Assembly: GCF_964030745.1 (NCBI RefSeq)
Contig: NZ_OZ034918.1
Coordinates: 360,001-392,000 of the forward strand
Length of the DNA: 32,000 nt
Origin: Candidatus Saccharimonadota bacterium
GTDB taxonomy: Bacteria; Bacteroidota; Bacteroidia; Cytophagales; Amoebophilaceae
Reading direction: 5' to 3'
Positions within the stretch are counted from its first letter, which is position 1. Every line of letters begins with the position of its first letter. Shown in pieces: positions 6,262 to 12,995 of the stretch. Made by a program: the position numbers and the translations under genes. The notes below the pieces were generated by a model that saw nothing but the letters and a program-made list of their open reading frames with translations, was not told the origin of the DNA and did not search any database.

Positions 6262-7392
6262 TCACTTTAATATAGCAACAAGCACAGTTATGTCGTCTGG
6301 CTTACCTCTAGGGGTTTTCGAATTTTCGTATGCTTTTACTGTTAGAGCACGCGCGATATCCCTTGCGATTTCTTGTATAGACTTTTTAGAAGGATCACAT
6401 CCGACGACGGTGTCAGAGACAGTTGTACGAATTTTTTTGGAACTGACGTTATCAGACAGACCATCTGTACCCATAATAACAATATCCTCTTGTTGTATTT
6501 CGAATGACAGAGAAGCACAACGATCTTTTGTATATTCGGCACAAGGATATTCTGCTTGACCACTACCCATTACTGCTTTACGTTTTTTATATTCTTCATA
6601 TTCTTTTTTATTAACACGCATTGATATTGCACAAGGCCAATTCTCACCATGCATTGTTTCTTCAGATTTATAAGGATCCTCATAACCATCTTTATCCTTG
6701 CGCAAGAGCATCATGGAAGAGTCCCCTATATTGACAACTACGCACTTACCTGCATGGTAATCTATCTTTACCAAATTAAACGTGGTCGCAGCCCAATTCA
6801 ATGCATATGGCTCACCATTGTTATTTTCTTGACTTAGCTTATATTCGTCTTCTGTCAACTTTCCTTCCTTGAGTTCTTTCTCATTTCTTTCTTTCTCCGC
6901 TTCGAGGCATTTTTTTAACCAATCTGGACATATCTCCTTACAAGCACTATCAATCTCTTCTTCTGTGGATTCAGGATTAGATGGTTCGATAATCTGCCCG
7001 ATTAGTTCGCGAGATAAAGTGGCTGAGTCTCCCCAAGCCCCTCCAACACCATCTGCGACAGCGAGTATGGCTTTACTCTCTTGTACATTAAAAGCAGCAG
7101 CATCTTGTCCAAATTGACACACGGATTTATTTTCTGCCATAACCTTTATGTCACTATCCTGTCCGGATTCATCGACTCCAGCTATTGCTATAGCTCCAAC
7201 CCTTACACAACCAGTAGTAGTTGGTCTGATATCGACACCTGAAGAACATGCACCCTGAGCATCTTTATTTCCATCTGGATACAAACCAGATGCAGATAAA
7301 ACCTGACAGCTGAAATGCAAAAAGCAAAGAAGCATTAGCCCTGCAAGGTACATGGAAACTTTTTTAATATTAAAGGATGATAGAGACACCAT
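6262..7392 (-). CDS. Secreted or lipid-anchored PP2C-family Ser/Thr protein phosphatase
   Basis: 376 aa. PP2C motifs: FGQDAAAF, AVADGVGGAWGDSATLS, VNIGDSSMMLLRKD, IMGTDGLSDNVS, GKPDDITVLVAIL. The N-terminus is a hydrophobic signal ending in FLHFSC (lipobox-like). There is an internal Lys/Glu-rich insert. Confidence 0.8.
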   Translation of the reverse strand: MVSLSSFNIKKVSMYLAGLMLLCFLHFSCQVLSASGLYPDGNKDAQGACSSGVDIRPTTTGCVRVGAIAIAGVDESGQDSDIKVMAENKSVCQFGQDAAAFNVQESKAILAVADGVGGAWGDSATLSRELIGQIIEPSNPESTEEEIDSACKEICPDWLKKCLEAEKERNEKELKEGKLTEDEYKLSQENNNGEPYALNWAATTFNLVKIDYHAGKCVVVNIGDSSMMLLRKDKDGYEDPYKSEETMHGENWPCAISMRVNKKEYEEYKKRKAVMGSGQAEYPCAEYTKDRCASLSFEIQQEDIVIMGTDGLSDNVSSKKIRTTVSDTVVGCDPSKKSIQEIARDIARALTVKAYENSKTPRGKPDDITVLVAILK

Positions 7393-9611: not shown

Positions 9612-12600
9612 ATGCAAACACATTTTTCAGCAATATTGACAGGACCGGCAATGCATATGGACAGTCTTATTTTTATTCTTTTCTTATTGATTAGCCTGCT
9701 TGTTGGCATCCGTTCCACTATGCATGCTACTATCCAAACTACTCGCTTTGCTACCGCTCATATTATAACGGCCATCTTAGCCATAACCTATGGTGGAGAA
9801 GTGTTGTGTTATCCGTTCCATATAGGTGGCTTACTAAGCTTGACAGGCAGTGCGATGAGCTATTTTATAATAGGTACGCTGCTGGCACATCGCTTGCATC
9901 TTTTTTTAAATAATCGTTCAGTCGCAGAAATAATGGGGCAACTCTATGGCAACTCTATTCAAAAAATTGTAGCCATATGTGGTATATGTTATAGTGTTGC
10001 CATAGCTGCCATACAGTGCAAACTGTTGGGAATGGCGCTATGCTGGTGCTTTGCTATGCCAGCAGACTATAGTCTGCTTATATCCATGTGCTTGATAGTT
10101 TGTAGTATTGGATCTAATACTATCCAATCGTTAGCACTGGCCAGTGTGGTGCGTTGTGCTGCTTTTGGTCTATTGTTGCCCACCATCGCTTGGGCTTTAT
10201 GGAAAGGTATGGTAGCGCAATATAATGCTGATCCAATCAACCTTGCACTAGCCGTTAAGCGCTCCTGGCATAACTTGATCCATAGCCATGGTACGCCACT
10301 GGGCTGTATGGCTTATTTTGTCGCTTTTGCCATACCTGCTTTCTACCCTGCTCAGGTAACACCTATTTTAATGGCCCAAAATGCCACCCAAATAAAACGC
10401 TCCTTGAATGGAGCTGGTTTTTTCTCATTAAGCATCAACTTACTTTTGCTATGGGTTGCGTTGTTGGCACAACACCATTCTGATAAATGGATGCTATCGG
10501 CCATTGCTCTTGCTGGTGGTTACACAGGGTTAAAAGGGCTCTTTATGGTAGGTGTTGCTGCTTTAACCATCTCTACAGCAGGCGCAAACTTGCATGCCGC
10601 CACGGGTTTAATGACCAATGATCTGCCAAACCTGTTTAAAGGGACTAAAAAGCCCATTATCTGTCAGATTATAGTAGGGATAATGGCATTACTTCTTGTA
10701 CAATACACTCAAGGACAAATGATGTGGAAGGCCATTGTTTTATTTAAATCCGTTGTAAGTCTACCATTACTACTTGCTTTAATTGGTATTTCCTTGCATC
10801 CATACGCCGTTTTAATGGGTATGCTAGCAGGTGGCATAACTGGTATGGCTCGATTCTATTTTGTACCTCATGAAGGTGTGCATAGTTTACTCCCAGCCAT
10901 TATGATGAACCTACTGACTATGATGGGTATGCAACTTTTGCAAAGCAAGCAAAAAACAAATCCACCCGACATAACCAATGGATTAACAGAAGAACCAATG
11001 GTTACGCCACCATCATTATGGAGGCGGTGGTGTAGATATATTTGCATAAAGCACTTTAATCTTTGGAACTATCTACAATTACCTAAGGACAGTTTACCTT
11101 ACATACTTTTTAGCTTTTATATACTCCTAACAGGTTATGGTGCTTTGTATACCTTTTCCAGCAACCTGATATGGGATACTAGATTAGAGGCACTTATCCT
11201 TTTCCCCAGCCTCTTTGTTGCCACATTTTTCTTAACCTACACTTCTATTTCACCCCCACCATATGTTCGTAAAGTTGCTGCAATAATATGGCCTTTAAGC
11301 CATATTTATTTTCTTTTTTTGATAGGTACTGGTATGGCTATGCTGAGCAAATTTGCTCATTTACATGACATCATTTTGATATTCAACCTCTGCTTATCTA
11401 TATTTATTAGCCCATTGATCGTGCTATTACTGGGATGTGTATTGAGCGCAGGAGTAGTCTGGGTCATCCTCCACTATATGGATTGCAATAACACATTGAT
11501 AACCTGCTTCTTAGATCTAAACCTAAATATCATCTATGCAATATTGATGTTATTCGTTTTCGTTGGTGGCCTGCTATACTACAATCGAGCCTTAAACAAA
11601 CGTTTAGCTATCATACAAGCGTTAACCAACGAACAAGAAGAGCAAAATGGAAGGCAATTTTTTAATAAACAACAAGTAGAAGCACTGGCTTACGAAAGTA
11701 GCTATATCATATCTCAACTGAATCATCAGTTGATTCGATTAGAACAGTCGAAAGAAGCATTCTTTGCTTATGCAGATCAAGCCATTAGGCTAAAAAAATA
11801 TTTTAACAGCATTTTTCAACACCTAAAACACAATCTTCATTTAGTGACCAATTGGATTAGTATTGATCAACTATTAGCTCAATGTTTCGATTCCATAAAA
11901 ATTAGCAATATATATGATACACCATATGTAATGATCCATACCAAACACCTCTACATACAGTGTGCTATAGAAAATATCAAAAATCTAATTATCAGCAGTT
12001 TATACTCCTGCAGCACACATGAATCTTTACATAGTACCCAAAGAAAGGATATCTATATGTATATAGATGATACACAATTAGGCTATCGCCTTACACTTTT
12101 ACAAGGAAAATTACAAAAAATCAATGCAATCAGCTTTGTCATCACCACTGCCATACAGCCACCTGCCATACGTCCGATCTACAAAGTAGCAGAAATGGCA
12201 GACATTCAAATCTTAGATGAAAATAAAGAAAAAATAGATTCTGAGAACCAACATATTGTACATGCACATTATGGTTACTATGAGCGGCTTTGTTCTGAGG
12301 CAGAAATCACTCATTTATATGTAATACCTGTAAATGTGAAAGAGATCACTAAAGCATTTGCTACGCTTTCGCCTGTTGTCTATACACAAAAGATGGTATT
12401 AGACCCAGTCAATATGAAAGAAGAAACAGCTTTTCTAGAGCGGGTTAAAAAGAAAAAAGGCATCCATCTTGATGCAGTGATGGATGCATTACAACTCATT
12501 AAAGTGTATTATACCACACAAAGGAGAAAAACAGGAGAATTATTTTATTTACACCCGATGGCAGTAGCCTCTATTTTACTGACTATAACGGACGATTCTA

Positions 12601-12995
12601 GTGTGATTATTGCTGGATTAGTCCATGACATCATACAAAACACACCCTTTACAGAAGCAGGCTTAACAACCCTATTTGGCGCTTCTATTACACAAATTGT
12701 ATTGACTGCAGCCTGCTTAGAAAAATTATTACCCCACCAAAAAGAAGATTATGCCACCTATATCAAACAGATTATGCGTAGTAAAAATCATAATGCCCTG
12801 CTGGTTAGGCTGGCAGACGTGCTACATAACGCAAGAACCATTTCTGGACATACTATTGAAAAACAGATAGAAAAATCAAAACTCATTCAAACATTTTATC
12901 TACCATTAGCCACGCAATTACAACTAGTCAATATAGCCCACGAGCTGGCATTACATAGTGAAAAGGTATTACACCTGGCTATGGTAAAGGATTAG
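9612..12995 (+). CDS. Large polytopic membrane protein with C-terminal SpoT/Mesh1-type HD domain (putative membrane sensor; ED dyad replaced by QN)
   Basis: 1127 aa.
- About aa 15-460: many TM helices with a sodium:solute-symporter-like flavour (RSVAEIMGQLYGNSIQKIVAI).
- About aa 490-640: a second TM block.
- About aa 650-930: a cytoplasmic coiled-coil and alpha/beta region.
- About aa 960-1120: aligns by eye with the RelSeq hydrolase domain. RKTGELFYLHPMAVASIL...GLVHDIIQNT...LVRLADVLHNARTI matches RKSGEPYIIHPIQVAGIL...GFLHDVVEDT...LVKLADRLHNMRTL. Confidence 0.8.
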   Translation: MQTHFSAILTGPAMHMDSLIFILFLLISLLVGIRSTMHATIQTTRFATAHIITAILAITYGGEVLCYPFHIGGLLSLTGSAMSYFIIGTLLAHRLHLFLNNRSVAEIMGQLYGNSIQKIVAICGICYSVAIAAIQCKLLGMALCWCFAMPADYSLLISMCLIVCSIGSNTIQSLALASVVRCAAFGLLLPTIAWALWKGMVAQYNADPINLALAVKRSWHNLIHSHGTPLGCMAYFVAFAIPAFYPAQVTPILMAQNATQIKRSLNGAGFFSLSINLLLLWVALLAQHHSDKWMLSAIALAGGYTGLKGLFMVGVAALTISTAGANLHAATGLMTNDLPNLFKGTKKPIICQIIVGIMALLLVQYTQGQMMWKAIVLFKSVVSLPLLLALIGISLHPYAVLMGMLAGGITGMARFYFVPHEGVHSLLPAIMMNLLTMMGMQLLQSKQKTNPPDITNGLTEEPMVTPPSLWRRWCRYICIKHFNLWNYLQLPKDSLPYILFSFYILLTGYGALYTFSSNLIWDTRLEALILFPSLFVATFFLTYTSISPPPYVRKVAAIIWPLSHIYFLFLIGTGMAMLSKFAHLHDIILIFNLCLSIFISPLIVLLLGCVLSAGVVWVILHYMDCNNTLITCFLDLNLNIIYAILMLFVFVGGLLYYNRALNKRLAIIQALTNEQEEQNGRQFFNKQQVEALAYESSYIISQLNHQLIRLEQSKEAFFAYADQAIRLKKYFNSIFQHLKHNLHLVTNWISIDQLLAQCFDSIKISNIYDTPYVMIHTKHLYIQCAIENIKNLIISSLYSCSTHESLHSTQRKDIYMYIDDTQLGYRLTLLQGKLQKINAISFVITTAIQPPAIRPIYKVAEMADIQILDENKEKIDSENQHIVHAHYGYYERLCSEAEITHLYVIPVNVKEITKAFATLSPVVYTQKMVLDPVNMKEETAFLERVKKKKGIHLDAVMDALQLIKVYYTTQRRKTGELFYLHPMAVASILLTITDDSSVIIAGLVHDIIQNTPFTEAGLTTLFGASITQIVLTAACLEKLLPHQKEDYATYIKQIMRSKNHNALLVRLADVLHNARTISGHTIEKQIEKSKLIQTFYLPLATQLQLVNIAHELALHSEKVLHLAMVKD

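What the first reader, a model, noticed from the sequence alone, without database searches (positions are those of the whole stretch)
12624..12644. HD domain keeps the metal ligands but replaces the catalytic ED dyad with QN
The motif that reads HDVVEDT in RelSeq and SpoT is HDIIQNT here. The codons are CAT GAC ATC ATA CAA AAC ACA, covering aa 1005-1011. The His-Asp pair is conserved, and so is the downstream LADxLHN motif. The Glu-Asp pair, known from Rel/SpoT/Mesh1 work to be needed for hydrolysis, is replaced by its isosteric amides.

Inference: the domain may bind (p)ppGpp or a related nucleotide without hydrolysing it. In other words, it may act as a receptor module on a membrane protein rather than as an enzyme.
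Basis: inference. Interest (0 to 1): 0.6.

Follow-up and report, generated by a model that had tools for sequence, protein, structure and literature searches.

The report
Hydrolase-dead alarmone domain on membrane protein
A Cardinium insect-symbiont membrane protein ends in a (p)ppGpp-hydrolase-type domain that keeps its metal- and guanosine-binding residues but carries the substitutions that kill this enzyme in the laboratory, so it most likely binds rather than destroys the bacterial starvation signal.

Summary
Codons 12624-12644 encode HDIIQNT (aa 1005-1011) of an intact 1127-aa ORF (9612-12995, +). They align without gaps to the HDxxEDT motif of solved Rel and SpoT structures.

The protein has four modules: an SLC5-fold transporter-like domain, an extra TM block, a degenerate histidine-kinase module and a Rel/SpoT-type HD domain.

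The four Mn ligands and the guanosine contacts are kept. Four positions are changed: Y to F, E to Q, D to N, and the R of LADRLHN to V. Published mutagenesis shows each of these changes abolishes or cripples hydrolysis on its own.

The state is stable. Twenty clade members from other assemblies keep HD plus N, with Q, K or R before it. dN/dS is about 0.11-0.25. Two lineages later lost the metal ligands as well, and one copy is a pseudogene.

This 1.09-Mb genome holds 16 such fusions: 3 canonical (ED), this one (QN) and 12 fully degenerate. It also holds two short synthetases with intact motifs.

Loss of hydrolysis is well supported. Binding of (p)ppGpp, the "receptor" reading, is plausible but untested.

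The gene family is already catalogued in the literature but uncharacterised. This scan has already noted the QN orthologue in two other Cardinium genomes.

The parts
9612..12995 (+). Intact ORF of 1127 aa (P0001). The true start is possibly Met14 or Met16, at 9651 or 9657.
   Evidence: full-length orthologues of 1112-1181 aa
9657..10946 (+). SLC5/SSS-fold (LeuT-fold) multi-TM domain, about aa 16-445. Pfam SSF does not detect it in this copy.
   Evidence: Foldseek matches CHT1, NIS, vSGLT and SiaT at E about 1e-7, TMt 0.56-0.66. No SSF hit at E<=10. Paralogues do hit PF00474.
11094..11477 (+). Second block of about 5 predicted TM helices (aa 495-622)
   Evidence: helices in the AF2 model
11493..11828 (+). 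Long helix and helical hairpin (aa 628-739), DHp-like in position. No HisKA profile match.
11826..12347 (+). Histidine-kinase CA (Bergerat) fold domain, aa 739-912, with no HATPase_c profile match (pseudo-kinase)
   Evidence: VIA-align: HK853 5uht Z 14.2, ThkA 3a0t Z 14.2, NtrB 1r62 Z 13.8. No Pfam hit.
12396..12992 (+). Rel/SpoT-type (RSH) HD domain, aa 929-1127
   Evidence: PF13328 at 60.1 bits; TIGR00691 N-terminal part, E 2e-28; PDB phmmer; 7qpr Z 23.9
12522..12557 (+). Motif RRKTGELFYLHP (aa 971-982). It holds the guanine-stacking R972 and K973, T974 (canonical Ser) and F978 (canonical Tyr, which contacts the ribose and sits near the Mn). It also holds the metal ligand H981.
   Evidence: contact roles from bioRxiv 10.1101/670703 and PMC11554896
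12624..12644 (+). HDIIQNT (aa 1005-1011). H1005 and D1006 are metal ligands. Q1009 and N1010 replace the ED diad.
12810..12839 (+). LADVLHNART (aa 1067-1076). D1069 is a metal ligand. V1070 replaces the 5'-phosphate Arg. N1073 and T1076 are guanosine contacts and are kept.
12849..12863 (+). H1080 (canonical Met/Leu that stacks on guanine) and K1084 (equivalent of the 5'-phosphate Lys). Both are invariant in the clade.
   Evidence: mapped by spacing from N150/T153/M157/K161 of Rel_Tt (bioRxiv 10.1101/670703), which is an inference

Best explanation
The gene encodes an inner-membrane protein of an expanded Amoebophilaceae family. Its modules are an SLC5-fold transporter-like domain, an extra TM block, a dead histidine-kinase core and a Rel/SpoT-type HD domain. 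In this paralogue the HD domain keeps the tight Mn2+ site (the 2H2D ligands H981, H1005, D1006, D1069). It also keeps the guanosine-binding residues (R972, K973, T974, N1073, T1076). It has lost the Glu-Asp diad that holds the second, catalytic metal, the Tyr hydroxyl next to the metal, and one 5'-phosphate Arg. It therefore cannot hydrolyse (p)ppGpp at a meaningful rate. This follows from published mutagenesis, not from an assay of this protein. Selection has nevertheless kept the pocket, so the most likely role is non-catalytic. The domain would bind a 3'-phosphorylated guanosine nucleotide, most probably the (p)ppGpp made by the genome's two short synthetases. The amide or basic side chains at 1009/1010 would contact the 3'-diphosphate directly, in place of Mg2+. 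Occupancy would then be relayed through the kinase-like dimer module to the membrane domain, or to partner paralogues. The binding and relay steps are inferred.
For: Homology and fold of the HD domain are established. The motif states are E to Q, D to N, Y to F and R to V, while H, H, D, D, R, K, N and T are kept. Published mutagenesis covers each change. SpoT_Ab E82Q is inactive, and D83N is poor with Mg (PMC11554896). In Rel_Tt, Y49F, E80Q, D81N and R147G each abrogate hydrolysis (bioRxiv 10.1101/670703). Across 20 clade members, 11 of 16 mapped pocket positions are invariant, against 30% of all domain columns. The variable pocket positions include the three relaxed sites 978, 1009 and 1070. 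dN/dS of the HD domain is 0.11-0.25, similar to the rest of the cytoplasmic tail. Position 1009 takes only Q, K or R, which are hydrogen-bond donors or cations and never acidic. Two nested lineages (G011, G009) lost all the metal ligands together on a long branch of 0.98. This shows what release of the constraint looks like. Synthetase genes with intact RxKxxYSI, DLAAIR, EMQVRT and HWxYK motifs are present. hMESH1 D66K still binds substrate (bioRxiv 10.1101/325266). In strain cEper1 all 12 'putative sodium-solute symporters' are transcribed (PMC5698495).
Against: No binding or activity data exist for any family member. Loss of the Tyr49-equivalent hydroxyl and of the R147 equivalent may also weaken (p)ppGpp binding. 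The metal ligands could be kept only for fold stability. The ligand could be a different nucleotide. An acidic residue specific to this clade (E1037, E or D in all orthologues seen) might form a new catalytic site, and its geometry could not be measured here. One orthologue is a pseudogene (G010) and two have lost the pocket, so the function is dispensable in some hosts.
Confidence: 0.6

Rival explanations
1. The domain is still an enzyme, but with altered chemistry or substrate. For example, it could be a one-metal (Mn-only) phosphohydrolase, or one in which Lys/Arg/Gln at 1009 replaces the second metal. It would then act on another 3'- or 2'-phosphorylated nucleotide, such as pGpp, (p)ppApp or an NADPH-like compound.
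For: The 2H2D site and N1073 are invariant. SpoT_Ab D83N regains activity at millimolar Mn2+ (PMC11554896). RSH hydrolases have shifted specificity before, as in the MESH1 NADPH/ppGp phosphatase (PMC11554896). The clade-specific invariant residues N1010, H1080 and E/D1037 suggest a rebuilt site, not a decayed one.
Against: E82Q alone gives no activity in SpoT_Ab. In Rel_Tt each of four equivalent changes abrogates hydrolysis, and here all four co-occur. Position 1009 varies among Q, K and R, which is unusual for a catalytic residue.
Confidence: 0.17
2. The domain is a purely structural or dimerisation module. The metal site is kept only to stabilise the fold, no nucleotide is bound, and the tail acts as a scaffold for the membrane protein or for hetero-oligomers with active paralogues.
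For: Twelve paralogues in the same genome keep a conserved HD-like domain with every catalytic and metal residue replaced, so the fold has a ligand-independent use in this family. The G011 and G009 orthologues lost the metal site yet remain open frames of 1146 and 1129 aa.
Against: Guanosine-contacting residues that are not needed for fold stability (R972, T974, N1073, T1076, K1084) are invariant in 20/20 sequences. They are replaced in the fully degenerate clade.
Confidence: 0.2
3. It is a decaying gene, an early-stage pseudogene caught between the intact and dead states.
For: Pseudogenised and further-degenerated orthologues exist (G010, G011, G009). Fragments of the family are common in Cardinium genomes (PMC12039267).
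Against: The 1127-aa frame is intact. Full-length frames of 1125-1172 aa with the metal site intact occur in 13 of the 16 other same-genus genomes searched. dN/dS is 0.11-0.25. The same motif state is held across lineages whose HD domains differ by up to about 50% in protein sequence.
Confidence: 0.03

Closest known systems
Rel/SpoT/SAH (RSH) (p)ppGpp hydrolase domains (RelSeq 1vj7, Rel_Tt 6s2t, SpoT_Ab 7qpr, Mesh1 3nr1/5vxa)
   Same: They are homologous (HD_4 at 60 bits) and share the fold (Z 23.9). The 2H2D Mn site is the same, and so are the R-K-S/T-G guanine motif and the N and T of LADRLHNxRT.
   Different: The ED diad is replaced by Q/K/R-N, the Tyr next to the metal by F/S, and the R of LADRLHN by V/A/T. 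The domain lies at the C-terminus of an approximately 19-TM membrane protein. It is neither N-terminal in a long RSH nor free-standing.
Engineered inactive mutants: SpoT_Ab E82Q/D83N (PMC11554896), Rel_Tt E80Q/D81N/Y49F/R147G (bioRxiv 10.1101/670703), hMESH1 E65A/D66K (bioRxiv 10.1101/325266)
   Same: The positions are identical and, for Q and N, so are the replacement residues. MESH1 D66K shows that substrate can still bind.
   Different: Here the changes are natural, combined, and maintained by selection across a genus.
[quoted passage not shown]
   Same: Each is an RSH HD domain that lost hydrolysis but is retained for a non-catalytic role.
   Different: RelA has lost the HDx3ED motif altogether (FPLADA, as quoted in bioRxiv 10.1101/670703). 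The present domain keeps all four metal ligands and the nucleotide contacts, so it is a partial and more specific inactivation.
Amoebophilaceae 'spoT / sodium:solute symporter' gene family. Atkinson 2011 (PMC3153485) describes a 'rickSpo[H] expansion' in Amoebophilus. Brown 2018 (PMC6232779) counts 18 copies in Amoebophilus and 2-7 in Cardinium. Mann 2017 (PMC5698495) reports 12 'sodium-solute symporters', all expressed.
   Same: This gene is a member, with the same architecture as its 15 paralogues in this genome.
   Different: The literature only counts the family. The split into ED-intact, QN and fully degenerate clades, and the conserved QN state, are not described in the papers read here.
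SLC5-domain sensor histidine kinases (CbrA/CrbS type 'transceptors'; a lead from earlier scan notes, recalled and not tested here)
   Same: An SLC5-fold membrane domain is followed by a kinase-core-fold module.
   Different: The kinase core has no HisKA or HATPase_c profile match, and the output/input domain is an RSH HD domain. STAC and PAS elements were not examined.

Membership tests
RSH superfamily HD (hydrolase-type) domain, Pfam HD_4 PF13328 | Profile match above the curated cut-off | tested here: met
   60.1 bits against a cut-off of 27.2, aa 959-1103
RSH superfamily HD (hydrolase-type) domain, Pfam HD_4 PF13328 | Rel/SpoT hydrolase fold | tested here: met
   7qpr Z 23.9, rmsd 2.8 A over 198 residues; 6s2t rmsd 2.1 A over 174 columns
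Active (p)ppGpp hydrolase (Rel[H], SpoT[H], SAH) | 2H2D Mn2+ ligands | tested here: met
   H981, H1005, D1006 and D1069 align to H53, H77, D78 and D144 of RelSeq
Active (p)ppGpp hydrolase (Rel[H], SpoT[H], SAH) | Invariant Glu-Asp (ED) diad three residues after HD | tested here: not met
   Q1009 and N1010 here; Q/K/R plus N in 20/20 orthologues
Active (p)ppGpp hydrolase (Rel[H], SpoT[H], SAH) | Conserved Tyr near the metal/ribose and the Arg of LADRLHN | tested here: not met
   F978 (F18/S2 in the clade) and V1070 (V/A/T)
Active (p)ppGpp hydrolase (Rel[H], SpoT[H], SAH) | Measured 3'-pyrophosphohydrolase activity | not testable with these tools
   needs an enzyme assay
Sodium:solute symporter family (SSS/SLC5), Pfam SSF PF00474 | Profile match | tested here: not met
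   No hit for aa 1-463 at E<=10. Paralogues score E 1e-4 to 1e-17.
Sodium:solute symporter family (SSS/SLC5), Pfam SSF PF00474 | LeuT/SLC5 fold | tested here: met
   Foldseek matches CHT1, NIS, vSGLT and SiaT at E 1e-7 to 1e-6, TMt about 0.6. The model pLDDT is only moderate at 67.8.
Sodium:solute symporter family (SSS/SLC5), Pfam SSF PF00474 | Na+ and substrate site residues; transport activity | not tested
   no residue-level alignment to characterised SSS transporters was made
Sensor histidine kinase | CA (Bergerat) fold | tested here: met
   Z 12-14.2 to many HK CA domains over about 130 residues
Sensor histidine kinase | HisKA and HATPase_c profile matches (H, N and G boxes) | tested here: not met
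   no such Pfam hit at E<=10
Amoebophilaceae SSF-HD fusion family | Full-length homology and shared architecture with paralogues | tested here: met
   Aligns end to end at 18-21% identity with 12 own-genome paralogues and forms a supported clade in the family tree

The most novel reading that the evidence does not exclude
The QN domain is a genuine high-affinity (p)ppGpp receptor that evolved from a hydrolase. Its Q/K/R-N pair would grip the 3'-diphosphate in place of Mg2+, and its occupancy would gate an SLC5-type transporter or transceptor. Cardinium would then hold, in a single gene family, membrane-controlled alarmone erasers (3 ED copies), an alarmone reader (this copy) and ligand-blind scaffolds (12 copies). 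That would amount to a stringent-response circuit rebuilt at the membrane in an obligate endosymbiont that lacks long, ribosome-bound RSH enzymes.
Probability: 0.3. Interest if true: 0.8.

Novelty: new variant of a known kind. Interest (0 to 1): 0.55.

Why it matters
RSH hydrolase domains are known either as active enzymes or as fully degenerate pseudo-domains such as that of RelA. This is a naturally selected intermediate that keeps the metal and nucleotide pocket but lacks the catalytic diad. It would be a ready-made 'substrate trap' for structural work on the precatalytic (p)ppGpp complex. PMC11554896 says such a complex is missing. It would also be a candidate for a new class of alarmone receptor. 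In addition, it gives a within-genome series (ED, QN, dead) for studying how enzymes become pseudoenzymes. Finally, it points to how a reduced endosymbiont without long Rel/SpoT proteins may couple host-nutrient sensing at the membrane to alarmone signalling.

Tried and rejected
- Pseudogene or sequencing-error reading: rejected. The frame is intact, the motif is the same in independent assemblies, and dN/dS is 0.11-0.25.
- Misaligned catalytic residues: the motif alignment has no gaps across HDx3ED in four PDB alignments, and the fold match is tight. I found no alternative acidic pair nearby. I could not measure distances, for example for E1037, because model coordinates are not exposed.
- Absence of (p)ppGpp synthesis in the genome, which would make a receptor pointless: rejected. 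There are two PF04607 hits with intact synthetase motifs.
- QN as a recurrent state in other paralogue clades: 20 further canonical-like copies were sampled from G014, G015 and G018. Seventeen keep HD..ED with a canonical LADRLHN-type motif. One truncated copy reads EN, one fragment reads QD..ED with its third motif not recovered, and one keeps HD..ED but reads LADRLDN. Among the 150 nearest representatives, scattered other deviations occur (AK, KD, DK, QE, EQ), mostly in short or fragmentary proteins.
- Pfam detection of SSF, HisKA or HATPase_c in this copy: none. Fold evidence was used instead.
- Operon context: the neighbours are rnpA, a FabG-like reductase and fabD, which are not informative.
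- Mapping of the MESH1 phosphatase-determinant Asp91 onto this protein: no printed alignment was available, so it was not attempted.

Full report
**Observation.** Window 12624-12644 reads CAT GAC ATC ATA CAA AAC ACA. It lies in a single 1127-codon open frame, 9612-12995 on the + strand. Orthologues begin at the equivalent of Met16, so the real start may be 9651 or 9657.

**What the domain is.**
- Pfam HD_4 matches aa 959-1103 at 60.1 bits against a cut-off of 27.2.
- The NCBIfam spoT_relA model matches only its N-terminal, hydrolase part, at E 2e-28.
- phmmer against all PDB chains finds Rel and SpoT catalytic fragments at E 4e-19 to 1e-12, and small alarmone hydrolases and Mesh1 down to 2e-6.
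- In the printed alignments, HDIIQNT pairs without gaps with HDVIEDT, HDTVEDT and HDVVEDT. LADVLHNART pairs with LADRLHNMRT, and RKTGELFYLHP with RKSGEPYIVHP.
- A whole-protein AlphaFold model (pLDDT 67.8) superposes its C-terminus on Rel_Tt-ppGpp (6s2t; rmsd 2.1 A over 174 columns) and on S. aureus Rel-pppGpp (7oiw; 1.8 A over 186).
- A second model of aa 737-1127 (pLDDT 79.1) gives Z 23.9 to full-length SpoT_Ab (7qpr) for aa 929-1127.

**The rest of the protein.**
- The N-terminal part, about 445 aa, has the SLC5/LeuT fold. It matches CHT1, NIS, vSGLT and SiaT at E about 1e-7 and TMt about 0.6. Pfam SSF does not detect it in this copy even at E<=10.
- A further block of predicted TM helices and a very long helix follow.
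- Residues 739-912 have the histidine-kinase CA fold. HK853 and ThkA give Z 14.2, and many others give Z 11-14. There is no HisKA or HATPase_c profile match.
- The neighbouring genes are housekeeping: rnpA, a FabG-like reductase and fabD.

**Organism and family.**
- Close homologues are named Candidatus Cardinium, in the Bacteroidota.
- The window lies in a complete 1.09-Mb, 39% GC genome.
- A whole-genome search with PF13328 found 16 genes with a C-terminal HD_4 domain. Fourteen are 1127-1203 aa and two are about 700 aa. Six paralogues were scanned against Pfam. The four full-length ones hit SSF, one of them just below the cut-off, and the two short ones do not.
- Aligning the HD domains shows three states. 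Three copies are canonical (HP ... HDVVEDT ... LADRLHN). This gene is QN. Twelve copies have every catalytic and metal residue replaced (VR ... LYELVRRT ... LAERLYD).
- A maximum-likelihood tree of the C-terminal 460 aa recovers these as three clades. The QN clade has SH-aLRT 95.
- The genome has no long RSH. It has two 371-aa proteins with a degenerate HD and a synthetase domain. Their catalytic motifs align with those of S. aureus and B. subtilis Rel. (p)ppGpp synthesis is therefore plausible.

**Conservation of the QN state.**
- Sixteen full-length orthologues from the protein database have H1005, D1006 and N1010 invariant. Position 1009 is Q, R or K.
- An orthologue-level match, at 48-77% identity, was found in 15 of the 16 other same-genus genomes searched. 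The sixteenth, G010, holds a pseudogene copy.
- Most orthologues read HDxxQNT with LADVLHN. One reads KN and one RN.
- Two orthologues (G011, G009) have additionally lost three of the four metal ligands (YLAP / YDVVQHT / LAIVLYN). They sit nested inside the clade on a long branch of 0.98.
- The G010 pseudogene reads HDIVENT.
- The best hit in another genus of the family (G018) is canonical ED, at 38% identity.
- Pairwise Nei-Gojobori dN/dS for the HD domain is 0.11-0.25, similar to the middle domain at 0.08-0.27.
- Among the 150 nearest 50%-identity cluster representatives from 1.84 billion proteins, 131-133 keep HD..ED. Only 5 match at E<1e-30, and all 5 belong to the QN clade.

**Residue-level reading.**
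I compared 18 canonical sequences with 20 QN-clade sequences at the 46 columns that are at least 85% conserved in the canonical set. The canonical set comprised 12 Cytophagales long Rel, 2 other long RSH, the 3 own canonical paralogues and the G018 copy.
- Kept and invariant in the QN clade: R972, G975, H981, P982, H1005, D1006, T1011, D1069, N1073, T1076 and others.
- Systematically changed: Tyr to F/S (978), Glu to Q/R/K (1009), Asp to N (1010) and Arg to V/A/T (1070). Further changes are Ser to T (974), Lys to R (1066) and several others.
- In the Rel_Tt-ppGpp structure, guanine is stacked by R43, R44 and M157. It is hydrogen-bonded by S45, N150 and T153. The ribose bonds Y49, and the 5'-diphosphate is held by K112, K143, R147 and K161.
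- In that enzyme, R43A, Y49F, E80Q, D81N, D81E, N150A and R147G each abrogate hydrolysis (bioRxiv 10.1101/670703).
- In SpoT_Ab, E82Q has no activity and D83N is poor with Mg2+ but is activated by millimolar Mn2+. The ED diad is proposed to hold a second metal that bridges to the 3'-beta-phosphate (PMC11554896).
- The protein therefore carries natural equivalents of four individually inactivating substitutions. It retains the M1 metal site and most guanosine contacts.
- Of 16 mapped pocket positions, 11 are invariant in the clade, against 30% of all domain columns. The hypergeometric p is about 0.001, which is rough because the sequences are related. The variable positions include the three relaxed sites 978, 1009 and 1070.
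- Position 1009 admits only Q, K or R. N1010 and H1080 are clade-specific invariants. This looks like a rebuilt phosphate-contacting surface, not drift; that reading is an inference.
- hMESH1 D66K is catalytically compromised, yet it co-crystallised with its substrate (5VXA; bioRxiv 10.1101/325266). This is a precedent for binding without turnover.

**Interpretation.**
- Loss of (p)ppGpp hydrolysis is well supported. The support is indirect, coming from mutagenesis of homologues.
Binding itself is unproven.
- Loss of the Tyr hydroxyl and of the R147 equivalent could lower affinity or change ligand preference.
- The rivals are altered catalysis or substrate, a purely structural role, and early decay. 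The last is contradicted by dN/dS and by the intact frames.

**What is already known.**
- Atkinson et al. 2011 listed a 'rickSpo[H] expansion' of 15 RSH in Amoebophilus (PMC3153485).
- Brown et al. 2018 counted 18 'spoT / sodium glucose cotransporter' homologues in Amoebophilus and 2-7 in Cardinium strains (PMC6232779).
- Mann et al. [quoted passage not shown]
- A 2025 study noted many SSF/HD-domain fragments in mite Cardinium (PMC12039267).
- None of the passages read describes the ED, QN and dead partition or the conserved QN state.
- Earlier notes of this scan describe the intact and dead paralogues of this genome. They also describe the QN orthologue in two other Cardinium genomes, with the same reading. 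I reached the paralogue series independently before consulting those notes.

**Verdict.** This is a new variant of a known kind: an RSH pseudo-hydrolase with its metal and nucleotide pocket preserved, fused to a membrane transporter-like sensor. Interest is moderate.

Noticed in passing
G000:C1 (whole genome; L011-L025): Sixteen SSF-like/HD_4 fusion genes lie in a 1.09-Mb genome, about 5% of its DNA. Three have canonical ED, one has QN and twelve are fully degenerate. Two of the degenerate copies are about 700 aa and lack an SSF hit. The C-terminal 460 aa of the copies at 326318-329896 and 846984-850562 are identical, which points to a recent duplication.
   Followed up: partly
G000:C1:324131-325246 (L027) and 775301-776416 (L026): Two 371-aa proteins combine a degenerate HD domain with an apparently intact RelA_SpoT synthetase domain, and they have no TGS/ACT C-terminal region. 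They are the only PF04607 hits in the genome. One lies about 1 kb from, and convergent with, a degenerate SSF-HD paralogue (326318-329896).
   Followed up: partly
L042 (G011) and L043 (G009): Orthologues of the QN gene have also lost the metal ligands (YLAP / YDVVQHT / LAIVLYN) but remain open frames of 1146 and 1129 aa. They sit on a long branch nested in the QN clade.
   Followed up: partly
L045 (G010:C1:207157-207903): The orthologue in this genome is a pseudogene with several stop codons. It reads HDIVENT, keeping Glu with Asn after it.
   Followed up: no
G014:C1, about 181-208 kb and 316-377 kb: One Cardinium-genus genome carries two long arrays of canonical-like SSF-HD genes, with 29 HD matches in all. 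The sampled copies keep ED, except one truncated copy that reads EN.
   Followed up: partly
window 6262-7392 (-): A 376-aa ORF has PP2C/SpoIIE-type phosphatase matches (PF13672, E 1.8e-9).
   Followed up: no
window aa 1037 of the ORF (12720-12722): An acidic residue (E, or D in one orthologue) is conserved throughout the QN clade at a column that is not conserved in canonical RSH domains. Its distance from the active site could not be measured.
   Followed up: no
window 9612-9656: The annotated-length ORF has a 13-15 residue N-terminal extension relative to its orthologues, so the true start is probably Met14 or Met16.
   Followed up: no
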